Shown here piece by piece: positions 9,372 through 64,000 of a DNA stretch of 64,000 nt. The notes beneath the pieces are model-generated. The model was not told the DNA's origin and did not search any database. It worked only from the letters and a program-made list of their open reading frames with translations. Position 1 is the first letter of the stretch. The number at the start of each line of letters is the position of its first letter. Source of the DNA: Eledone cirrhosa (taxonomy: Eukaryota); contig OZ024742.1 in the NCBI GenBank assembly GCA_964016885.1, positions 172,856,001-172,920,000 of the forward strand. Direction: 5' to 3'. A program made the translations under genes and the position numbers.

Positions 9372-10564
<1,193 letters not shown>

Positions 10565-13003: not shown

Positions 13004-13292
13004 GCATACATACACCCACACACATACACACATACACACCCACACACACGCACACAGACACACACATATATAGATAGATACAGTTATACGTGGGGAGGCT
13101 CATATTGTTATAATATTGCCAGAAATAATAGCAATACTTGTTTCGACACACGATTTCATATCAAAAACCGTGCACAGAGATTTGGCCAGACCTACCATCT
13201 ACATTAACAACACATTGATAATAACACTGACGCAACATCTTCAGCAGAAGACGATTAACAGCCTTCTCACCTACGTTTATGAACAGGAAATA

Positions 13293-13872
13293 ATAATTGT
13301 TTCTACTTTTGATACAAGGCCAGCAATTATCCCAATGCATTACTGGTACGTTATTTTATCTCCCCTGTAAGGATGAAAGGCAAAGCTACCCTCGATGGGA
13401 TATGAATTCAGACTGTAAAGGGCTGTAACTTATGCTTCAAAACATGTTGTAGGACCCTCTACCGATACTGTGAAAGCAAATAATTGTTTCTACTTTAGGC
13501 ACAAGGCCAGCAATTACCCAGTGCATTACTGGTACTTTATTTTATCGACCACGTAAGGATGAAAGGCAAAGTCAACCTCGGCGGGATTTGAACTCAGATC
13601 GTAAAGGGACGTAACTATGCTGGAAAGCATGACGTCCAACCCTCTACCGATACTGCCAATCCACCGCCTATGTGAAAGCAAATAATTGTTTCTACGTTAG
13701 GCACAAGGCCAGCAATTACCCAGTGCATTACTGGTACTTTATTTTATCGACCCCGTAAGGATGAAAGGCAAAGTTAACCTTGGCGGGATTTGAACTCAGA
13801 ATGGCAAGTGCCGTAACTCTATACGTCAAAGCATGGCGTCCGACCCTCTACCGATACTGCCAATCCACCGCC
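13293..13872 (-). mobile_element. Three stacked tRNA-derived SINEs
   Basis: Copies at 13293-13470, 13480-13668 and 13682-13872; A box TGGCAGTATCGG, B box GAGTTCAAATCC, central GCCTTTCATCCTTACGGGGTCGATAAAAT, tail AGAAACAATTAT. Confidence 0.9.
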
Positions 13873-14939
13873 TATGTGAAAGCAAATAATATTGTTAGGA
13901 TAGCCACTCATCTATGAAAAGTTACATGAAATAAATCTTGATTCAAACTTCTCTCACAGGAACATTGGAAATCTCTCCTGAATGTTGAAACAAAATACGC
14001 ATGTACAACCGAGAAGGTTGAACATGCTTATTTGAAAAAAAAAACACATACCACGAGGGGATAAATTATAGTAAAAGCCTGACATGGAATTCCGACAAGT
14101 TCATAATATCACACTATGAAGGATGCTTCAGTGCAATCCATGTACACCAAATCCACACCACTACCTTTTGCACAACAGAGAAAGGTCATTAGATGTTCTC
14201 TTTTGGGTCCACATATTAATAAGTATGTTCTGTTGTAGACGTCAGCTATCCATTTGATATCAATGTGGTAAGAAAATGCAAACCAAAGAGGATAACTACT
14301 GATCATTGATGAGGAGCTTTCAGATCCAGTAGCCAAGATACAAGTTTAGCTTCATCCCCGTAATTATTGGCGCTACAGGTTACATACCAACTCCTAGACC
14401 AAAGTATAGCTGAGCTTGTATCTCAGATTCGAGAATTGCTATTCATTGACCTTTATCTCATACATGTGTTTCGCGAACATTTCGTTACAACCCTGTCAAT
14501 ATTTTAGATTCCATTTTATATATGTTGTAGCGAAAGAGAAAATGAAAGGGCTATATCACGCAACACACGTGATAGCCATTTCGATTAAGTGATGCTTGTG
14601 TTTGATACATAGGATCAAACTCATTCTCTGAAAAACGGTGACATGTATCCAAAAAGAAGAGCAGTTCCAAATCATTGACTGCCAAAGAGCCGCCGGTTTT
14701 ACACGAGCGTGTTCCGTCTCCTGGAAAGTTGTTCTGACAAGAACGAGTGGTCTTTTACACGCTGTGTACTAACCGCGCACTCGGGCACCGAGCTGAGTAT
14801 TTCCATGACGCCACGCATACATAGATACATGCCAGCCTATATACATACACACATACATATATACATACGTACAAACACATACTTCTATTTCGTTTAAATA
14901 TTCATCCATCTCATTATTTAATTAAATATTCCTATGTCT

Positions 14940-20307: not shown

Positions 20308-21142
20308 ATAAAATGAATATGGTTTCATAAATATAGTTTCCATATATTAATACCATTGATATATATAGAATATTAAATATTGGTGATATATGTTACTTTC
20401 TGTGTGAAATTATAATTAGGTAATATGAATGTTCATGAAAATTATGTAAGTATACAGGTTTCTTTCATAAACAATAGAGTCTATTTTATTAGAGATAGTG
20501 TATCTCTAAATATCTATGGCAATCTTCAGATCTTCATGTTTATACGTACCTACATGAAAACATGTAAACATACGTACTTGCCAAGATGCATGTAGGCATA
20601 CAAACACACAGACACACACACGCACGCACACACACATATATATATATATATATACCTATTAATATATATAATAATATAAACATGTATACCTATATATATA
20701 TATATATATATGAAAGTTGATAATTTATTCGCATGACGTAAATAACAGTAATTGAGGGAGAACAATAACATTCCCATGGAGACAAAATGATGACCAAAGA
20801 AGCATGCATCTCACGCACATGTCCAGTTCATTTCCCTCATTAAAGTTTCACTCATATAGAGTTGTCCGCCTTGAAGCGACTATGTTTTAAAGTTTCAATG
20901 GGCACAAATCCTGTATATATATATATTTATGTATATATATAAGCCAACGAATGCAATCAGGAGGTACAGCCAAGCACTCGATAAGGTATAAAACCTTAGG
21001 GTATATAAATATTGGAATTGAGGTTTTTTTTACAAAATGAAAAATAACCGAGGTGTCCTACACGAGTGAAAGTATAAGGAAAGAAGATGATATCGAAAAT
21101 GCAACTGTAGTCTTTTTTTTTTAAATATATATTTATTTGGTT

Positions 21143-21179
21143 CTTTTACCGGTTTCGCAGTTCTTCTGCTTTTCAAAAG
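21143..21179 (-). ncRNA. Degenerate minimal hammerhead
   Basis: CTTT-TGAAAA (decayed core)-GCAGaagaaCTGC-GAAA-CCGG-TA-AAAG; all three helices preserved. Confidence 0.55.
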
Positions 21180-21212
21180 TAGAATTGAGATGAAGGGTCT
21201 GTGGTTTTTCTC

Positions 21213-21365
21213 ACATTTATTATAATGCTCGGTTTGTTTGCAAACAAACAGCCCTAATTAGTAGCTGTACAGTGTTCGGCAACCATCGTTGTTCAACAGT
21301 GACTAAGGAACGATGGACTAGTTTCTAGCTTATTAGCTGTCATCGGCATCGTATACGTTCCTGTC
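21213..21365 (-). mobile_element. Family A fragment with hammerhead at 21311-21351
   Basis: CGATG-CCGATGA-CAGCTaataAGCTA-GAAA-CTAG-TC-CATCG; flanks align to 9538-9695. Confidence 0.75.
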
Positions 21366-21369
21366 AGTC

Positions 21370-22400
21370 GATTGGCCCTTAGCAATAGAACATTTCCGAA
21401 AGTAAAATTCTTCTACTCCCAACCATTAACCTGTTCCAATCTACAAACTCACAGGGTGTGGCAAATGGTAGCTCAATCAAATAACGGTTAGGTGTACCTC
21501 AGACGCCTTGAAGTTGGAACATAGTATACGCAACGATTAATTCTGTTCAAAAGCAATATACTGTTCCGTATCTCGACTATTTTCTTTTTTCTAAGAGAAA
21601 TTTATGTGGACACATCCAGGCAACCCCAGCAAATGTTTAAAAGCGTTCTGAATCAAATTTACTAATAGTTAAAATGAAAAATTCCTGAAATAACATGAAA
21701 CACTTAAGAAATATTAGGTTTTCTTAATAAAGCACACACCTTCTATAAGAGAAACTCATTTTTATTTACAATAATGATTTCCATAGAATCAAAAACATAA
21801 TGTGAATACGGAACATTGAATATTGAACATTATTTTTGCAAAAGAGACGATTTAGTTGTAGTTGGGTATGTTTTACGGTTTTCGGTAACGATCTATAAAA
21901 TAAATTGTTTCTCAGTTTCATTTTTTGTGAAAATGTTATTGTATTCCTGAAGGAGTTGGACAACTCTTGCTGCAACATCATTCACAACAACTGTCTTCTC
22001 AAGTTTTACAAGTCCACTTTTGTAACCAGGATCATCCTTTCAGGTTGAAGTGTCTCTGTCGAGGTAATCGGTGCTGATAGAACGTCTCGTGAAGAAAGTT
22101 TTTACCAGGCGTTATAAAAGACGAAAACTTGGAAGAAAAGCCATCTTGGTGCTGAAAGTACCTCTTCAGTTGATTCTTTCACATTTGTCTGTTCCCAGCA
22201 TAACTTGAGCATTATTTGCGTTAACCTCTCCTTGCATTACTTGCTCTTTTTATCTCCTTGCTCTCCTTTTCTCTTTGTTGTCCTTCCTATCCTTGCTCTC
22301 CTTGGTCTTTTTATCTTAAAAAAATGCCTTTCCAGGCGAAATTTCAACGTCTCCCGGTCGATAAGGGTCGCCTTGTCGTTGTCTGCGTGAGCTAAAGTTT
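21370..22400 (-). pseudogene. Possible highly decayed PLE N-terminal/RT fragment
   Basis: Only weak residues (FSQKMKLRNNLF; GLP..VH and LR..S-like) in the expected order. Confidence 0.3.
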
Positions 22401-24131: not shown

Positions 24132-24337
24132 TAAGATAGGGGGGAAGAAAAAATGGCTTCACTTGTGCTTTCAACAAATTTATTTTCTTCACAAAATCCA
24201 AAAATAATTTTTCTTAAAAAAAATTATTTTATAAACTAAATTTTTTTTAAGAAAAATTCTTTTTGGATTTTGTGAAGAAAATAAATTTGTTGAAAGCACA
24301 AGTGAAGCCATTTTTTCTTCCCCCCTATCTTAATATA
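24127..24337. repeat. Near-perfect foldback (~95-bp arms)
   Basis: tatattaagataggggggaag...ttcttaaaaaaaatt versus its reverse complement. Confidence 0.9.
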
Positions 24338-24537: not shown

Positions 24538-24915
24538 CCTTGAAATGCTAGTAGAAAATGAATACATGCTATATGATGGAGTCATAAGTTCATATGTTGG
24601 TCAATAAAGTTTGTTTTGATTGGTGGAATAGTTCATAGGGATGTTTTTGTCTGTAATGCATGTGGGTGGTGGATGTGATGATAACATGGTGGTGACGGTC
24701 ACGGGCTGAGGTGGGCGGCAGTGTTGGGGTGGTGGATTGTCGGTAGACAGACTGGCATATATTTGTGGTGGATTTGTGTGTGTGGTGTCGGTGTGGTGTT
24801 GTTATTTGTGGTAATGGTGTTTATGGTTGTGTAATGGATGTGTTGGTGGTGTCAAATTCAATAGACTTCCTGGATATATATATATATATATATTTTTTTA
24901 TTTTATAGAAGGAGC

Positions 24916-24960
24916 TTCTACAGGACTAGTACTGTTTCATTCAGATGAAATCTTCAGGAA
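24916..24960 (-). ncRNA. Minimal type I hammerhead, intact core, in a foldback (24895-25040)
   Basis: TTC-CTGAAGA-TTTCatctGAAT-GAAA-CAG-TACTAGTC-CTG-TA-GAA; the mirror arm lacks the CTGANGA box. Confidence 0.8.
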
Positions 24961-25609
24961 TCTTCAGATGAAATCTTCAGGAATCTTCATCTGAATGAAA
25001 CAGTACTAGTCCTGTAGAAGCTCCTTCTATAAAATAAAAACATTTACTCTGCCATGTATTGAGTACCTTACTTACTGTGGTTATCCCCGACTCAACCCGG
25101 GACCTACGTATATATATATATATATATATATACAGATACATCCACCAATTAATGGTAGGGTCTAAGCCGCATGAAGAACTCAATGTAATCCGTATGTAGA
25201 AGATATGATCTATGTAATATATTTTACATAGATCAATAATAGAATGAATATACGGAGAACTACCCCCCAGAAATGATCGTAAAATAATGAGTTTTACTAT
25301 AAATTAACCGTATTTTATTTAATTTCATTGATTTCATTATTTGTATTAAATATATATACTTATATGATTGTGTCGGTCAGTGTGTGATTGTAATTGTAGA
25401 TTGATTGGAAAACATTCCAGAATGAAAAAAAAAACACAATATTATTTTTGAATATTTAAATTATAAATAAGATAATTATAAATAAGATAATGTATCCTCG
25501 GATTACTGCAGTGACAAGTGGCCGTAATAAAGATAGCAAATATTTACTAAATACCAATAAATATTAACACAATGACAAACACTTTCTATCTGTATAGAGG
25601 GTATCAAAA

Positions 25610-31288: not shown

Positions 31289-31354
31289 TATTTCATTATA
31301 TATATTTCGGGGATATCATATTAACAATATGCTATGCCTTCATCAGACAAAATA
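31289..31354 (-). ncRNA. Hammerhead with TATATA helix III, intact core
   Basis: Reverse complement of 32282-32347. Confidence 0.75.
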
Positions 31355-38387: not shown

Positions 38388-41145
38388 GCTTTGGGAGGGT
38401 CATGTTGCCAATAAGAAACACACGCACCAGGAGCTTTCACTCCAATTTATTATAAATTAAATTAATAAATTCCCGGTTGGTTGGTTGGTTCCATAACCGG
38501 AGGGTTGTTCATATATTGTCACAGTTCTTTCGTCACATATTTTGTGACCTCTTCAGTGTCTGGAGATTATTTTCTTTGTTCTGTGCCTCTCCTTTGTTCT
38601 GTTCTACGCCATCTTGTTTTTGTGTGTGTTGTCTGATTACTTTGCGCTTGTGTTACATCCGGGTGCCTGTGTGTGTTTTTATTTGTTTATTTATTTGTTT
38701 ATTTACATGTTAATGGTTGATTGTTTGTTCTATGTGTGTGTGTGTTTTCATTTTGTCCTTAATTGTAAGTTGTGATGTTGCTATTCCATTCATGTTTTCT
38801 ATTTTATTTTGGTTGGAGTTCATTTATGTTTATTGCCTCTGTGATTTGTCTAAATATTGCGTCTTTTCTGTGTGTAGATTCTATTTTTGATTCTATGTTC
38901 TCTAATTTGCCCTTATGTTCTATTTTAGGATGTTGGTGGAGTATTGATGATTCTTTTGTATCTTGAAGTTCTCGCTAGTCTTCATTTAACCGTTCTCCTA
39001 TACTACGCGCTGTCTCACCTATGTACCCTATATTCTTATCTTTGCATTGTCCTTCAGTACATCTTATGCTATATAATATATTTCTAGTTTTACAGTTAAT
39101 ATGGAGGGGGGGGGCTTAGTTTACAGATTATGCATGTCTTATCTATACAGGGAGGTCTTTGAAAAGGGTATGTATTGCTAATACGTGTTTGTGTGGAGGT
39201 TCCTGGTCTTTCTACTATCTTAATATTAAGTTTAAGTTCATCTAGGGCCTTTCTAAATTTGTAAGCTAATTCACCTCTAGGGGTTGTATTGATGAACATT
39301 ACATCTGGTATTTATTGCTATCATACCATGAGTGTATTCTATTAACCTTATTCCTAGTTCTTTCTATTTTATTCCAAAATTTGCTCCTATATAAGAGGCA
39401 GGTTCCATTTGTATCATTATTTACCATTTTTTCCCATTTGGTTCAGGCTCCTCTATATACTTTGATTTTATCTCTCTGATTGTAACCAGAGAACTGCATA
39501 CGGTGGATGAAGTGTTGTATGTGTCTCTCTAGTTCTTTGTGGTTGCATATGCGGGACAGGTTTCTCATTACCCGTACCAAATCGGCAATCAGTATGTTGA
39601 TTTTGGTGTGATCCGAAACAGCTGAGTTTCGATGGATCAGATATTTGGAAGTCATGGGTTTGGCATAATGAGAATGGAGGATTTGTTTTTCTGTTATTTT
39701 GCTTCTTGTTATACTTTTCTATAATATTTAGATCTAGCTATATTAAATTGTGCTTCTATTTGTTCATCGACCTGTGACGGAAATTGCGTGCGTTTGTTAA
39801 AAGCTAAAGTCGTGGCGTGGACTCGTCTTATGTCGAAGGACATATCGGAAGGATTATAAAATGTAGAATTCCAGGCTGCTGCGTTATGTGTTCTATTGCT
39901 ATTGTTATTGTTAGTTGCTTCTATTTCTATTTCCTCCAACAGCCTCATGGTTGTTTCTATGTCTCTCATTATTACTCCTGTCTCTTTTCTCTGGCTCATT
40001 GTTATTATCTACTCTATTTTGTTTGTCTGTGTGTTCGTCCTCGGTATTTAGTCTGTCAGTATCGATAGTCTCCCTTCTTCTTTCAATCCTATTATCTTCC
40101 CTTACTTCTGTGTTACTGTCATTTGGATTGGCAGTATCGGTAGAGGGTCGGACGCCATGCTTTGACGCAAAGAGTTACGGCCCTTTCCATTCTGAGTTCA
40201 AATCCTGCCAAGGTTAACTTTGCCTTTCATCCTTACGGGGTCAATACAATAAAGTACCAGTAATACACTGGTTAATTGGTGGCCTCGTGCCAAAACTAGA
40301 AACAATTATCTGTTTCTGTGTCTGTGTGACTGTAAGATTGTGTTGTTGGTGACAAGCATCTTATATTTATCTTATTATATGTTGCATATTTCGGTGGTAG
40401 CTATAACATGGATAGTTCATCGGGGTCTACTGTAGTGTTGCCGTATATATTTGTGCTGTTGTTGAATTCGTCAATTAATGGTATGTCGGCCATGTTTATA
40501 CCATCAATCCTATCTGGTTATTTATCTCTATTCTCTGAAGTTTCTTGGTTTAGTTTCATCTGTTTGAGCCACGTTAATTTCTTGTTGAAGTGTTTGTTGC
40601 AATCTTGGATGATGTACTTTTCTTCTTCGTGTATAATATTTATGTATTCTAATTGTTCTTTTGGTGTGGTGATCTTAGTTATTTCTTGTATTAAGTTACG
40701 CTTATGTTTTTCTTGATGACTTAATCTCTGTAATTCTTTTTTTGTTAATGTTTAGAATTAGTGTTCATTTTAACCTATCTGCTTGTTCTTTTGGTAAGTT
40801 GTAAAGTTCTTACATCGGTGTTGATGGTATTGGTGTAAAATCGGGATGAGGCACATTCTTTTATGAAGTGTAGTTGTCGAGATGATATTGTTTTTCGTAG
40901 ACAACAGAAGATGGTGGTTTTCAGTATCTTCTTATCTTGGCTTACGATATTTTGTTTTTGAATTTGTATAACAAGATTCGTTATCTGAAAACGTGTATTG
41001 AAACCGATATTGTTATACTTTGGGAGGGCCATGTTGCCAATAAGAAACACACGCACCATTGATTTCACTCCAATTTCTTATAAATTAAATTTATAAATAT
41101 AAGAAATTTATAAATTTCCGGTTGGTTGGTTGATTCCACAACCGG
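38388..41145 (-). mobile_element. PLE left unit: pLTR part, N-terminal region, thumb/GIY-YIG and pLTR; RT core absent
   Basis: 38388-39690 is the reverse complement of ~42400-43705; 39700-41032 reads MALPKYNN...KILK...DIRRVHATTLAFNKRTQFP; 40960-41145 is the reverse complement of 43575-43765; hammerhead at 38518-38560. Confidence 0.85.
40125..40310 (+). mobile_element. tRNA-SINE inserted into the PLE
   Basis: GGATTGGCAGTATCGG...GAGTTCAAATCC...AGAAACAATTAT. Confidence 0.9.
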
Positions 41146-55945: not shown

Positions 55946-56000
55946 TGTTATATATATTTCGGTGATAACGATTTTGCAACAGCTATGACCTCATCAGACA
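55946..56000 (-). ncRNA. Type I hammerhead with TATATA helix III, intact core
   Basis: TGT-CTGATGA-GGTcATAGC...GTTATcACC-GAAA-TATATA-TA-ACA. Confidence 0.8.
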
Positions 56001-57471: not shown

Positions 57472-60400
57472 GCGCGGGGACATAGCAATAATCGGGCTGG
57501 ACACCCGATCGCGCAGTTAAACCACTGGGAGTGAAGAACCCCTAGCCCTTGTCAGGGCATTCTTCTAGGAGAAGGCATCTCAGGAAACTGGGTTAACTCC
57601 GACATAAAACCTGCAGCTCAGTAGTTACCGATGATGTTGATCTTTTCTTCTTTTCGGGTTATAGCTACTGTCGCTCAGAGAGTGGGATTGGCTCAGTGCA
57701 CAGTCTTTCCTCACTTTAAAAATATTCGTCACGCACAGGCATTGCACGAGTGCATTAATAATTATTAATAGTGTATTATTATTAGTATTGTTACTATTAT
57801 TATTACTTTTTTTTTTTTTTTTGTTCCAATTCAATGATGTTTCAGAGCAATATAAAAGAGATAATTGGCAATTTAGGTTCTGGAACAAAAAAGATAATTG
57901 GCAGTAAGGGCAGGGGCCCCAGGTTATCACAGCCTCAGCCCACTCGCCATCGTGCCATTGTAACAGAGCCAAAGGCATTTATTATTGGCTGCTGGAACGT
58001 ACGGACGCTGCTTGACAAGGATTGCTTGGAGCGTCCTGAACGAAGGACCGCTCTTGTTGCAAAGGAGCTTCGGCGTTACAATCTTGACATCGTGGCTTTA
58101 TCTGAGACGAGGTTAGCTGGAGATGGTCATCTTACAGAATTTTGTGGAGAATATACATTCTTCTGGAAAGGAAGAGATGAAGGAATCAGAAGAGAGGCTG
58201 TGGTAGGATTTGCTGTTAAGACTGTCTTGTGAATAAATTAGAAGAATTCCCAGTAGGGATTAGTGAGCGCCTTATGTCCAAGAGAATTCCGCTGGACAAA
58301 GGAAGATATGCGACCCTTGTGAGTATGTATGCTCCAACTATGAATTCTGTCGATGAAGAAAAAGTGTCCTTGAAAGGTGTTTTAAGAAATATCCCTCAGG
58401 CAGACAAAGTCATCGTGCTTGGTGACTTTAATGCTAGAGTGGATAGGGATCTTAACACATGGAATGTAATCGGAGGGTATGGGGTGGGGAAGAGTAACAA
58501 CAATGGTAAGGTCCTGCTGCAGATGTGTGAGGAGATGGATCTGTGTGTTACCAACACCATGTTCCAACAAAAGAACAAATTCAAGACCAAATGGATGCAT
58601 CCTGCATCTAAGGAATGGCATCTTGTAGACTACGTCCTAGTCAGGATGCGTGACAGACAGGATGTGCACTGCTCGTGCTCTTCGTGGAGCTGAGGGAAGG
58701 ACGGACCACCGCCTGGTACGCGTAAAAGTCTAACTAATCACTAAACGTAAAATCCGGATCCTAGAGTTGCCCTGGCCAGAATATTGAATGCTGCTTGTCT
58801 TAAAGATAAAAATATGAAGAGGACATTGGAAGAAGAGATGCAGGCTGCAGATCTTGGTGAGGATTGGCCGACCCTTAACAAGTCGGTTAATGATGTAGGC
58901 AGGCGTGTTCTGGGATTGGTGCAGAGAAAACATCAGGACTGGTTTAATGAGAATGATGTATGTACATATAGAAGACTTGTTGGCTGATAAGAGGCGTGCT
59001 CTGTCACGCTATTTGACGGCAAGACCACAGGAGTGGAATACGTTGCATGAGGAACTCAAGGATTTAAAATCACGTGTTAGGCGGAGTCTTTCTCAGATGA
59101 AGGATCAGTGGTGGAGTGAGAAGGCTGGTGAGATACAAACTGCGCCAGATTCTAACAACACAAAGCGGTTGTACAGTCTCTTGCTTGAGGTTTATGGATC
59201 GTCTTCTTCTCTGGTGACACCGCTTCGCAGCAAGGATGGCACAGACCTTCTTCGTGACTCACAAGGAATTCTACGAAGGTGGCAAGACCATTTTGATGAT
59301 CTTTTGAATCAGCCGTCTGTCGTCAGTGAAGATTTCCTCAATCTCATTCCAGAAAGTCCTGTGAAGGTATCTCTCGCAGAACCTCCGACGCTTGTGGGGG
59401 TTGCAGTGGCTATCTCGAAGCTGAACAGTGGAAGGTTTCCAGGTATGGATGGCATACATGCTGAGCTCCTACAATATGGCGGTGAGAGACTCCTGCAACA
59501 TCTTCACTCTTTGTTTGGCAGGATATGGACTAATGAATCCATACCTGAGGACTGGAGAGATGCAGTAATGGTGTTCTAGTACAAGGGAAAGGGTAACAGC
59601 AATGATTGTGGGAACTAAAGGGGTATATCATTACTTTCTGTCGTAGCGAAAGTTTTATGTAGGGTGCTTCTGGACCGTCTGCTGACACACATTGCAGATT
59701 GTCTTCTTCCTGAAAGTCAATATGGTTTTCGTGCTGGACGTGGCACTCCTGATATGATCTTCTCACCTAGACAGCTCCAGGAGAAGTGCATGGAACAAGG
59801 TTTGGATCTGTATCAGGTGTTTGTCGATCTGACAAAAGCTTTCGATACTGTTAACATAGATGCATTATGGAAGGTTCTCCAGAAAATTTGGTTGCCCTGA
59901 TAAGATCCTTGCTTTAGTTAGGTGTTTCCATGACGACATGAAGGCTTGGGATAATGTCGGAGGTAACATGTCGGAGCCTATCTCAGTAAAACATGAAGTG
60001 AAACAGGGGGATATTCCAGCACCGACACTGTTTGCCATATACTTTGCAATGGTTTTCTGTATTGCATTCAGGAATTGCGAGCATGGTGTTTACATCCGAT
60101 ATCGAACCTCAGGCAAAATATTTAACATCAGGCGCTTTGCTGCAAAGACAAAAGTATTTACATCAATCATAAGAGACCTCTTGTATGCAGATGTTTGCGA
60201 TCTTGTAGCGCACACAGAGAGTGATATGGAGCACATTTTGAATGCATTTTCTGACGCTTGCAGAGCCCTAGGATTGACTGTCAGTCTCAAGAAAACCGTC
60301 GTCATGTACCAACCTGCCCATGGTAAGCAGTACACTGAACCAAATATCTATGCGTATGGTAAACTACTAGGAGTGGTTGATTAGTCTGTCTACATGGGAA

Positions 60401-61645
60401 GCACTGTCAATCGATACAGCAAACTTGACAAGTGAAATCTCACTTAGGGTTAGGAAAGCAAGTGATGCTTTTGGAAAGCTAGAAAGGCGACTCTGGGGTC
60501 GGCGAGACATATGCAGGAGGACAAAGGTAAAGGTGTACAAGGTATGTGTGCTCTCTTGTCTTCTTTATGCCTGCGAGACATGGGTCACATATCGACAACA
60601 CCTTAAGCAATTGGAGCGTTTCCATCAGATGTGTCTTAGACAGATCCATGGCGTTCACTGGAGGGATCACATCAGTGATGTCGAGATTTTGTAAGCTTTA
60701 TGTGTGACAGTATAGAAGCTATTGTGCTTAAGCAACGACTCCGTCGGAGTGGTCATCTTACCAGGATGAAGGATTCCAGAATACCAAAACAACTCTTTTA
60801 TGGAGAGTATGTTAAAGGAAAACGACCGCCACATAAACCAAAAAAGAGGTATAATAATTCCTTGATAGCCTCTTTGACAGACGCTAACATCTCTGCTGAT
60901 ACATGGGAAAATATTGCTGCTGATCGTAATAAATGGAGAAAGACTGTATATGAGGGAAAAGTTGCCTTTGAGGCATCTCGAATCGCATACGAGAAAGTAA
61001 AGCGGGATGTGAGGAAGGGCATTGCTGTTGCACTTCCAGACGGCGAGGGTCCGCCTATGGTGCTGACATGCAGCGTTTGTGCGAGACTCTGCCTAAGCAA
61101 AGCTGAACTCGAAAGTCATCTTCGCAGTCATAAAGTAAGACCAGTGGTTGACTACCAGGCTGCTGTTGGAGATGCTACTCATCAGGCTTGCCAAACATGT
61201 GGTACAGAATGTAAATCAGCCGGAGGGCTCAAGCGACATGCAAAAGTACATGAACTCCAACCACAACCGGCTATTCCCAGTGAATGTTTTGGTTGCCGAC
61301 TCTGTGCAAGACATTTCAGATCATTGGCTGGGCTAAAAAGCCACATTCGATCGCAGCGCTGTTAGTTGTTTTTGCGTGTGTCTATAGATATGTTTATGTG
61401 TGTGCGTGTGTGTGTATATATATATATGTATATGTATATTATTATTGCTGTTGTCGTCGTTATTATTATTATTGTTATTAATGTATATCTGTGTATGTAT
61501 ATATATATGTGAGTATATATGTATATGTATGTGTGTATAAGTGTATATATATATTTTATTTATTTATGTTATTTTTTATTTATTTATCAATATTTTTTTT
61601 CTCCTCGTGCAATGGCCATACTCAATAACGAGGGGGCAGCCATCA
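57472..61645 (+). mobile_element. Near-full-length RTE-clade LINE, inactivated
   Basis: RTE-like 5' region (aaccactgggag...ctaggagaagg), single APE-RT reading unit, 3' tail atggccatactcaataacgagggggcagcc followed by (CA)n/(TA)n. Confidence 0.9.
57977..61365 (+). pseudogene. RTE ORF: APE endonuclease, RT and three C-terminal C2H2 fingers
   Basis: GCWNVRTL, ALSETR, YAPT, LGDFNA, DYVL; PESQYGFR, FVDLTKAFDTV, VKQGD..APTLF, LLYADV (YADD mutated); CSVC..H..H, CQTC..H..H, CRLC..H..Q; multiple stops and frameshifts. Confidence 0.93.
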
Positions 61646-62339: not shown

Positions 62340-62368
<29 letters not shown>

Positions 62369-62374
<6 letters not shown>

Positions 62375-63150
62375 TGAAACAAAATGAAAACGAAATTTCA
62401 TTTCTCACTCTTAGTATGGCACTTACTTAAATGTAAGTATGCATGTATACGTACATACATACATGTATACAGACGTACAGTAGCATGCACATATATATAT
62501 ACATATACATATATACATACATATGCATACAGGTACACATACATATATGCACGTATCAGTTTAGCGGCGCTAACGTCGCTTTGTTCGTTTGTAAACAAAC
62601 TGAACAGCCTGAATTTATGCCATACGGTGTTAAGGCAACCACGTCACCTTTTTGTTCAACACTGACACAGGAACGATGTACTAGTTTCAAGCTTGTTAGC
62701 TATCATCAGCACCGTTTACCCATCTGCCAGATAGTTGAACGTTCGAAAGTATATACTTTCCTTATGAAAATTAACGGCTGAGCAGCCTAATTTGCATATT
62801 GAGTGAGTTAAATCGGTCAGGCATACCGAAAACGATAAATTGAAACAAAATGAAAACGAAATTTCATTTCTCACTCTTAGTATGGCACTTACTTAAATGT
62901 AAGTATGCATGTATACGTACATACATACATGTATACAGACGTACAGTAGCATGCACATATATATATACATATACATATATACATACATATGCATACAGGT
63001 ACACATACATATATGCACGTATCAGTTTAGCGGCGCTAACGTCGCTTTGTTCGTTTGTAAACAAACTGAACAGCCTGAATTTATGCCATACGGTGTTAAG
63101 GCAACCACGTCACCTTTTTGTTCAACACTGACACAGGAACGATGTACTAG
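62369..63150 (-). mobile_element. Family A retrozyme-like element, ~1.7 apparently identical tandem units (466-bp period) within (TA)n
   Basis: Units start at 62369 and 62835; identical ORF-track translations 466 bp apart; no real ORF. Confidence 0.88.
62674..62714 (-). ncRNA. Minimal type I hammerhead, intact core
   Basis: CGGTG-CTGATGA-TAGCTaacaAGCTT-GAAA-CTAG-TA-CATCG. Confidence 0.88.
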
Positions 63151-63330
63151 TATATATATATATATATATCTGTGTGTGTGTGTGTGTGTGTGTGTGTCTG
63201 TGTGTGTCTGTGTGTGTCTGTGTGTGCGTGCGTGTGTGTGTGTGTGCGTGCGTGTGTATGTATATGGGGGCGTAGTGTGGCGTGCCGGTGTGTTTGTACA
63301 TGTAGATATGTTTCATTATTCCAATATACG

Positions 63331-63512
63331 TTGGATTGGCAGTATCGGTAGAGAGTCGGACGCCATGCTTTCCAGCATACTTACGTCCCGTTACGATCTG
63401 AGTTCAAATCCCGCCGAGGTTGACTTTGCCTTTCATCCTTACGGGGTCGATAAAATAAAGTACCAGTATTGCACTGGGTAATTGCTGGCCTTGTGCCTAA
63501 AGTAGAAACAAT
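63331..63512 (+). mobile_element. tRNA-SINE with TSD
   Basis: AT(T/G)ATTCCAATATACGT on both sides; standard boxes and tail. Confidence 0.9.
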
Positions 63513-64000
63513 GATTCCAATATACGTATTTGTGAACGCTGGTATATGTAAATGATTATGAACCACATTGGGCTGTGATCTTCCAGATTCTAATTGCCAA
63601 TGATTCTTCCCTTCCGAACCCTCTTTGGTGTCTTGGGATACAAAATCGTGGTGCGTCCATTCAACGCCTCCTAGGACAGGTCGCATGGAATGGACACTGC
63701 GATATATTTTTTCTAACAGGCCCCTCTCCTAAATACCTGAATGCGTCCCTTGTTAAGGTGCGGTAATGATAATGCGATATGGGCCATTACTCGTCCTGCA
63801 GCTACCAGATTATATCGCAACTAAATATCATCTCTGATCGGTCTATCACTATTTCGAACCTTTGATCCATTCTGTATAACATCTCTGGGGACGAGGAAAT
63901 TTGGCCTAAGATTGTAAAAGCCTTAAGTAGAGAAGTTATTCACTAGCTGACTCATGTTGGCATGGACATCTCCGGTTGGCCTGGATATCTGGAAAAGTAC

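What the first reader, a model, noticed from the sequence alone, without database searches (positions are those of the whole stretch)
62369..63152. Young family A 1.7-mer ending at its own ribozyme cleavage site: best retrozyme candidate
Seen: two apparently identical 466-bp-period units with an intact CTAG hammerhead. The second unit stops at ...CGATG-TA-CTAG|TATATA, within ~6 nt of the predicted GUA cut, which corresponds to the RNA 5' end. No ORF, (TA)n on both sides. Inference: a cDNA copy of a self-cleaved multimeric or circular RNA that was recently mobile, i.e. a probably uncatalogued non-autonomous ribozyme retroelement. The few nt beyond the cut could come from palindrome or target microhomology.
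Basis: partly seen in the sequence, partly recalled or inferred. Interest (0 to 1): 0.75.

Follow-up and report, generated by a model that had tools for sequence, protein, structure and literature searches.

The report
Penelope-inserted hammerhead retrozyme, ordinary truncated copy
This is one copy of a young, very abundant non-coding jumping repeat carrying a predicted self-cutting hammerhead RNA; its end beside the cut site is chance truncation, but the family's copy ends bear the marks of Penelope-type retrotransposons, whose enzyme likely wrote them by reading round one probably circular RNA.

Summary
The sequence description holds: 62369-63151 is a 1.68-mer of a 466-bp unit with one complete type I hammerhead on the minus strand, between (TA)n runs. 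It is a real retroelement family (10,005 exact hammerhead matches in the genome). The headline inference fails. RNA-5' ends do not pile up at the cut (6 of 138 against 6.5 expected; genome-wide 36 junction loci against 37 and 15 at control sites). The fixed ends are on the 3' side, about 310 and 248 nt past the cut, and 56 of 82 sampled copies are two inverted arms: the Penelope-like (PLE) tail signature. Rare variants fixed in every unit of both arms, an A>G bias among them, and one array with a 7-nt scar at all five junctions point to one monomer read repeatedly, probably a circle. A one-off chimera at window 21006-21374 joins an older family member to the end of an autonomous PLE. Expression and cleavage are untested. 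Verdict: new member of the known metazoan non-LTR retrozymes. This scan noted the same family and sister families before on other DNA of this genome.

The parts
62369..63151 (-). Whole insertion: 1.68 units of the 466-bp monomer, one arm, 5'-truncated (monomer positions q460-466, q1-466, q1-310; q1 = first base after the predicted cut)
62679..63144 (-). The one complete cut-to-cut monomer (466 nt)
62672..62716 (-). Complete type I hammerhead motif: stem I, CUGAUGA, stem II, GAAA, short palindromic stem III, GUA triplet; predicted cut 62679/62678
   Evidence: sequence
63138..63151 (-). Truncated upstream site: only the substrate half (stem III strand, triplet, stem I 3' strand). This is the variable RNA-5' end; junction with 1-2 nt of TA microhomology
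   Evidence: cofold with the enzyme half gives stems I-III at -15.1 kcal/mol
62369..62434 (-). Penelope-type 'tail' (q245-310) between the two fixed family ends; 62369-62370 is the primary end, inferred reverse-transcription start
62437..62530 (-). Long TA-rich hairpin (q149-242), downstream copy; carries A>G at 62502 and 62462 against the family majority
62903..62996 (-). Same hairpin, upstream copy, with the same two A>G changes (62968, 62928)
62748..62798 (-). Candidate internal promoter: TATGCAAATTAG 12-mer and TATA box 42 nt later, like the upstream region of this genome's U6 genes
   Evidence: function inferred
62342..62371 (.). (TA)n target flank at the primary end
63152..63170 (.). (TA)n target flank at the truncated end
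21006..21374 (-). One-off chimera: older family member (21374-21213, through its hammerhead) joined on the same strand at ATGT to the terminal repeat and tail of an autonomous PLE family (21216-21006)
9372..10415 (.). Older two-armed inverted insertion of the same family (70-80% identical), ends at about q310 and q245 in (TA)n

Best explanation
This is a 5'-truncated copy of an abundant 466-nt non-coding hammerhead repeat whose copies end at two fixed sites in (TA)n, likely inserted by a Penelope-like retrotransposon enzyme that probably read repeatedly round one circular RNA monomer. Steps. (1) Inferred: a U6-like promoter inside each unit, or read-through, makes multimeric RNA. (2) Predicted: hammerheads cut it, likely as dimers through the ACUAGU palindrome, and a host ligase closes the monomer. 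(3) Inferred: the long hairpin is sometimes A-to-I edited. (4) Footprint shown, enzyme inferred: a PLE endonuclease/RT nicks (TA)n and starts cDNA inside the RNA at q309-310, and in about two thirds of events also on the other strand at q245-251. (5) Shown: each arm runs a variable distance (33 to over 4,000 nt), crosses cut sites without error and stops anywhere; the arms join head to head or one arm joins the target. This copy is one arm of 783 nt that stopped 7 nt past a cut site by chance. Its promoter-like module lies downstream of its only full monomer, so it is likely not a source of new circles. Odds by step: PLE-type insertion 0.9; active ribozyme 0.8; circular monomer as usual template 0.65; the L101 PLE family as partner 0.4.
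For: Fixed ends: 1,050 exact matches to the window-type 3' end plus TATAT; second-arm outer end at q245-251 in 45 of 45 arms with the landmark (56 inverted, 7 at locus edge, 4 without landmark) and 503 forward-strand genome matches. 56 of 82 usable copies are inverted two-arm. Autonomous RT+GIY-YIG PLEs here have the same anatomy: L106 arms end 66 nt apart in (TA)n, L115 likewise; published PLE tail = interval between two RT start sites, both strands extended (PMC11167929). Single template: 11 of 22 loci with >=3 units have all units identical; rare variants fixed in all units of both arms (L193 6/6, L177 7/7, L194 8/8; 10 of 22 fixed variants span both arms). Fixed variants 18 A>G: 2 T>C of 29, singletons 22:22 of 221. 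200 of 214 junction crossings identical; L164 lacks the 7 nt before the cut at all 5 junctions. 11 of 82 primary arms stop at the second start site against 2 and 2 in the neighbouring bins. Chimera with PLE terminal repeat. Helices 97% paired in 49 variants, one G-U to U-G double change.
Against: No RNA, cleavage or circle data. The A>G bias weakens to 8:2 of 22 (p 0.035; Fisher against singletons 0.075) with an alignment-free method, and most sites lie in the TA-rich part where alignment is ambiguous. L065 has 446T in 3 non-periodic units across both arms and L172 shows a two-unit period: a single monomer template does not explain these. Junction scars are not enriched genome-wide (2 loci with multi-base deletions at the cut against 1 at a control site). 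The monomer has no extended similarity to 50 PLE loci, only a 12-nt tail match (24 of 2,000 shuffles reach it); the chimera is a single event. The tail (about 60 nt) is longer than the 30-40 bp in print. Stem I is weak in the circular fold (0.18-0.80). U6-promoter likeness is not significant per locus (58-217 of 1,000 shuffles) and the spacing is 42 against 46-49 nt.
Confidence: 0.68

Rival explanations
1. Same PLE insertion machinery, but the template is a long uncut read-through transcript of a tandem array; the hammerhead plays little part in copying.
For: Perfect junctions fit uncut RNA equally. Non-fixed shared variants in L065 and L172. In the anole PLE, hammerhead cleavage was not needed for insertion in vitro (PMC11167929). 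Only 1 of 9 frog dimers cleaved in vitro (10.64898/2026.07.22.740005).
Against: New variants fixed in all units of both inverted arms and the A>G bias of fixed but not singleton variants need one monomer to be amplified; L164's five identical scars end at the cut; arrays would shrink with each round.
Confidence: 0.15
2. The template is a cut linear monomer, and the enzyme jumps repeatedly from its 5' end to its 3' end (or to another monomer) to build multimers.
For: Explains fixed variants and L164 as well as a circle does; switching between monomers could explain L065. The window chimera shows a template switch can occur.
Against: Jumping should leave errors and stops at the cut. Only 13 deletion-bearing junctions were found beside 10,005 intact ones (insertions not searched), and there is no pile-up of stops.
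Confidence: 0.1
3. One reading: cDNA ran off the 5' end of a self-cleaved RNA, and the 6-7 extra bases come from palindrome or target microhomology.
For: The end is 7 nt from the cut and forms a TACTAGTA palindrome with the flank. One of two genome-wide controls is lower than the cut site (15 against 36), so a mild excess is not excluded.
Against: 6 of 138 ends near the cut against 6.5 expected, p 0.64; 36 loci against 37 at the q46-58 control; this exact junction occurs once among the 36; CTAG cannot come from a (TA)n target; the same cDNA had already crossed one cut site.
Confidence: 0.04
4. A satellite expanded at DNA level or an assembly duplication, or merely the terminal repeat of a truncated autonomous PLE.
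For: Some period-2 or -3 patterns suggest later DNA-level duplication. PLE copies are usually 5'-truncated (PMC8557442).
Against: Dispersed copies with fixed ends and inverted arms; strand-biased changes; the unit closes on itself in arrays of more than 10 units without an ORF; PLE ORF pieces in 7 of 160 family loci all lie some 500 bases or more from the arms.
Confidence: 0.03

Closest known systems
Metazoan non-LTR retrozymes (coral, mussel, axolotl: Cervera and de la Pena 2020, PMC7229834, parts 2-4 of 6 read, supplement unreadable; review PMC7761336, passages; vertebrates: Li, Clavereau and Pollet 2026, 10.64898/2026.07.22.740005, parts 1-3 of 5 read, supplements not seen)
   Same: Small non-coding tandem unit with one type I hammerhead, weak palindromic helix III as in the axolotl motifs, thousands of copies as monomers to multimers, PLEs in the same genome; circle-templated copying by PLE RT is proposed there.
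   Different: 466 nt is above the 170-400 nt of the 2020 paper, within the 51-972 bp of the preprint. Fixed double start sites, inverted two-arm insertions, editing marks and a PLE chimera are not described in the text I read. The review says retrozymes seem to lack promoters; this one has a U6-like candidate. Circles were shown there, not here.
Penelope-like elements, EN+ (Frangieh et al. 2024, PMC11167929, parts 1-2 of 4 read; Craig et al. 2021, PMC8557442, passages)
   Same: Partial tandems, 5' truncation, inverted second arm, tail at one end only, AT-rich or (TA)n targets, internal RT start at two adjacent sites, hammerhead upstream of the start sites.
   Different: No ORF; unit 466 nt; tail about 60 nt; no extended similarity to the PLE terminal repeats sampled, so it looks like a passenger rather than a recent deletion derivative.
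Non-autonomous Chlamys PLEs such as MRC1 (PMC8557442, passage)
   Same: Non-autonomous, multicopy head-to-tail insertions driven by a PLE.
   Different: Those share 3' sequence with their autonomous partner and belong to a clade said to lack canonical hammerheads.

Membership tests
Metazoan non-LTR retrozyme | Type I hammerhead motif in each unit | tested here: met
   Core and three helices present; 97.1% of 588 cells paired in 49 variants; 10,005 exact matches. No Rfam hit.
Metazoan non-LTR retrozyme | Small unit in tandem, dispersed monomers to multimers | tested here: met
   arms from 33 nt to more than 14 units.
Metazoan non-LTR retrozyme | No protein coding | tested here: met
   Longest ATG frame 48 aa on the RNA strand; no PLE tblastn hit in the window.
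Metazoan non-LTR retrozyme | At least two consecutive complete hammerheads ('active' criterion of the 2026 preprint) | tested here: not met
   This copy has one complete motif. The family meets it: 34 of 90 primary arms exceed 790 nt. This lowers 'active copy', not family membership.
Metazoan non-LTR retrozyme | Self-cleavage and accumulation as circular RNA | not testable with these tools
   No RNA run was listed; only indirect genomic signs.
Metazoan non-LTR retrozyme | No LTR, primer-binding site or polypurine tract | tested here: inconclusive
   End mapping shows no LTR layout; primer-binding site and polypurine tract were not searched.
Type I hammerhead ribozyme | Conserved core (CUGANGA, GAAA, NUH) with open stem I | tested here: met
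   Sequence; position 7, loop II and the triplet vary in older members as expected.
Type I hammerhead ribozyme | Loop I-loop II tertiary contact | not tested
   Not analysed.
Penelope-like element (autonomous) | RT plus GIY-YIG ORF | tested here: not met
   It is not an autonomous PLE.
PLE-mobilised element (works like) | Two fixed 3' ends separated by a tail | tested here: met
   q309-310 and q245-251; PLE at L106 has a 66-nt tail.
PLE-mobilised element (works like) | 5' truncation, partial tandems, inverted second arm, AT-rich target | tested here: met
   56 of 82 inverted; (TA)n flanks. This copy is single-armed.
PLE-mobilised element (works like) | Sequence shared with an identified autonomous partner | tested here: inconclusive
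   No extended match to 50 of the 150 listed GIY-YIG loci; one chimera and a 12-nt tail match.

The most novel reading that the evidence does not exclude
The family is a genomic record of rolling-circle target-primed reverse transcription: a dimeric Penelope enzyme, probably of the L101 family, primes both strands of a (TA)n break on one ribozyme-made, ADAR-edited RNA circle transcribed from its own U6-type promoter, and stamps each edit or ligation scar into every unit. That would name the missing enzyme and template of animal retrozymes and make RNA editing a heritable source of variation in a mobile RNA.
Probability: 0.4. Interest if true: 0.75.

Novelty: new member of a known kind. Interest (0 to 1): 0.45.

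Why it matters
The papers read propose, but do not show, that animal retrozyme circles are reverse-transcribed by Penelope-like elements. This family supplies exact start sites, a candidate partner protein with an open RT-GIY-YIG frame, and internal markers (edits, a junction scar) that separate circle from linear templates, so the proposal can be tested directly in vitro.

Tried and rejected
End pile-up at the cut: tested two ways and rejected (distinct loci counted by hand from 83, 71 and 25 listed matches; anchors differ in conservation, so the counts are not normalised). DNA search of the genome with the unit returned nothing because common words are skipped. Rfam: no hammerhead hit. RNA evidence: no RNA holder listed. 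Laid contigs of 5 of the 6 listed runs show the family in high depth in one sample but cannot show ends, and the tool skipped the junction at 63142-63175, so polymorphism of this insertion is untested. Search for an autonomous partner by similarity: negative in 50 loci. Genome-wide ligation scars: too rare to test. One search used a structure that I had mis-indexed by one column; one search is the corrected count. Assembly duplication rejected on anatomy. Target-site duplication cannot be read inside (TA)n. Literature searches that found no cephalopod retrozyme paper and no two-armed retrozyme insertion: (listings); unread supplements of PMC7229834 and of the 2026 preprint could list such a family. 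A look-up in PMC4209133 failed on a short term and was not repeated; I saw only its listing.

Full report
Coordinates. q1 is the first base after the predicted cut on the minus (RNA) strand; the monomer is q1-q466. The window is G000:C3:172856001-172920000 in a 3.0-Gb animal genome. Earlier scan notes call the host an octopod; I did not test this.

1. Observation. The insertion spans 62369-63151, 783 bp, with 317 bp exactly repeated at period 466. On the minus strand it reads q460-466, q1-466, q1-310, with (TA)n on both sides. One complete type I hammerhead lies at 62716-62672; the upstream site keeps only 7 nt before the cut. Rfam does not recognise it and its isolated fold is not better than shuffles (21 of 200 fold as well). 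The motif is nevertheless convincing: all core bases are present, and in 49 distinct variants from the fetched loci 97.1% of 588 cells pair, with a G-U to U-G double change in 4 older sequences, probably one event. Catalysis is predicted, not shown.

2. Family. The exact 42-nt hammerhead occurs 10,005 times (control 0). The window-type 3' end followed by TATAT occurs 1,050 times. I mapped the first 90 of these, all on contig C1; the other 960 were not examined. Eight were dropped from 5'-end counts (7 ran off the fetched stretch, 1 met an N gap), leaving 82.

3. The end at the cut site is chance. Of 138 RNA-5' ends (82 primary arms, 56 second arms), 6 fall within q455-q10, against 6.5 expected from a uniform spread (p 0.64). 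Genome-wide, TA-flanked 5' junctions in a 13-nt window number 36 distinct loci at the cut, 37 at q46-58 and 15 at q423-435 (counted by hand). The lower second control leaves room for a mild excess; its anchor covers positions that vary in older members, so it may undercount. 55 of 90 primary arms are long enough to cross a cut site.

4. The fixed ends are Penelope ends. 56 of 82 copies have a second, inverted arm. Its outer end lies at q245-251 in 45 of 45 arms with the landmark (7 at the locus edge, 4 without landmark), followed by (TA)n; a genome-wide pattern gives 503 forward-strand matches (the 1,151 reverse matches are inflated by overlaps). Arm joints mostly show 0-5 nt overlap. Eleven of 82 primary arms stop at 50-66 nt, at the second start site, against 2 and 2 in the neighbouring bins, as expected if both strands are sometimes primed on one RNA. 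The genome is rich in GIY-YIG elements (10,596 candidates, 150 scored). Three of four proteins tested have both RT and GIY-YIG Pfam hits. Their two-armed copies show the same layout: at L106 one arm ends 66 nt beyond the other, both in (TA)n; L115 is similar. Frangieh et al. (PMC11167929) showed that a PLE protein nicks and extends both strands at AT-rich DNA and starts inside the RNA at two adjacent sites whose interval is the 'tail'; Craig et al. (PMC8557442) describe tandem and inverted arms, a 30-40 bp tail and (TA)n bias.

5. Template. In 39 loci with at least two units (153 units), 11 of 22 loci with three or more units have all units identical in the non-repetitive part. Rare variants are fixed across both inverted arms, for example L193 6 of 6, L177 7 of 7, L194 8 of 8. 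Such fixed variants are 18 A>G to 2 T>C out of 29 on the RNA strand, whereas singletons are 22 to 22 out of 221. An alignment-free recount gives 8 to 2 out of 22 (p 0.035; Fisher against singletons 0.075), so the bias is real in direction but modest, and some calls in the TA-rich part may be artefacts. Most sites lie in a predicted 40-bp hairpin, a plausible substrate for A-to-I editing (general knowledge, recalled). The window copy differs from a common copy only by two A>G changes, q177 and q217, present in both of its repeats; q177G is shared with two other sampled loci. Junctions are precise: 200 of 214 crossings identical, 8 with substitutions, 1 with a 1-nt deletion, and 5, all in L164, lacking the 7 nt before the cut. 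L164 looks like a trimmed monomer ligated once and copied five times. Genome-wide such scars are rare: 13 deletion-bearing junctions, with multi-base deletions abutting the cut at 2 loci, against 7 matches and 1 multi-base deletion at a control site. Against a single monomer: L065 has 446T in 3 non-periodic units in both arms and recurring length variants, and L172 alternates with period two. These could be dimer templates, later duplication, conversion or collapsed alleles. A circle is the simplest reading for most events, but it is inferred.

6. Partner. The monomer has no extended similarity to 50 PLE loci apart from three co-inserted family copies, and PLE ORF pieces in 7 of 160 family loci lie well away from the arms. 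In the window itself, 21374-21213 is an older family member (80-83% to older copies) joined on the same strand at ATGT to the last 210 nt of the L101-family terminal repeat (about 90%), ending at that PLE's long-tail end. The junction is unique in the genome, and the sequence beyond the PLE end is not the continuation of the repeat, which argues against a nested insertion. A template switch by that PLE's RT is the likely cause; it is one event. The two tails also share a 12-nt word (24 of 2,000 shuffles).

7. Promoter. Following a lead from e1-9512178, I compared q311-440 with U6 upstream regions. The 12-mer at q347-358 matches, with 0-1 mismatch, a motif at -77 to -80 of three independent U6 loci (two of six loci examined have a repeat inserted there and no match), with a TATA box 42 nt downstream against 46-49 in U6. 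It is conserved in older members. Per-locus alignment scores are not significant, and the monomer has four T4 runs. This remains a lead. In the window copy the module lies downstream of the only full monomer, so the copy is likely a dead end unless read through from the flank; the truncated site could still serve as a substrate half in a double hammerhead (cofold).

8. Comparison and verdict. It meets the testable features of metazoan non-LTR retrozymes (PMC7229834; 10.64898/2026.07.22.740005) and works like a non-autonomous PLE passenger; it is not an autonomous PLE. Seven literature searches listed no paper on this family or on two-armed retrozyme insertions; unread supplements may bear on that. 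The scan has reported what appears to be this family (467 nt, e1-8803865) and several sister families with the same reading; I treat those as leads, and the editing and promoter tests came from them. New member of a known kind; interest 0.45, carried by the family-level mechanism and the chimera, not by this copy's end.

Noticed in passing
window 21006-21374 (-): Unique chimera of an older family member and the terminal repeat of an autonomous PLE family; likely RT template switch.
   Followed up: yes
L164:407-3245 (G000:C1:184444808 onward): Two-armed insertion whose five junctions all lack the 7 nt before the cut; candidate ligation scar copied five times.
   Followed up: partly
L101, L102, L106, L112; window about 21140-21180 (-): The hammerhead-like motif of this PLE family reads TTGAAAA in place of CTGANGA (a U3-A8 core swap) with a CCGG palindrome in stem III.
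   Followed up: no
window 20258, 31305-31346, 32290, 38528-38556, 49545, 49824, 55957-55997: Further hammerhead-core motifs of at least two other families (TATATA or other stem III), several with long stem II.
   Followed up: no
window 24153-24311 and 24902-25033: Near-perfect hairpins that gave spurious miRNA hits; the first matches the inverted end sequence seen at PLE locus L103, so these are likely short two-armed insertions.
   Followed up: no
L065-L066 (G000:C1:69577966-69586760): 8.8-kb two-armed array of about 19 units with recurrent, non-periodic variants in both arms; unexplained by a single monomer template.
   Followed up: partly
L223 (G000:C1784:7218-10257): Two consecutive units share a 1-nt deletion in the GAAA core, so a core-defective unit was multiplied.
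   Followed up: no
G000:C19:31780605-31840331: Tandem cluster of about 34 U6 genes at about 1.8-kb spacing, some with a SINE-like repeat inserted just upstream.
   Followed up: no
window 13292-13890 and about 63340-63520: A common interspersed repeat, here also as a 202-bp tandem; looks like a SINE (label recalled, not from a call).
   Followed up: no
window about 58000-61360 (+): GC-richer stretch ending in zinc-finger-like coding sequence, probably the 3' end of a LINE (read by eye and composition).
   Followed up: no
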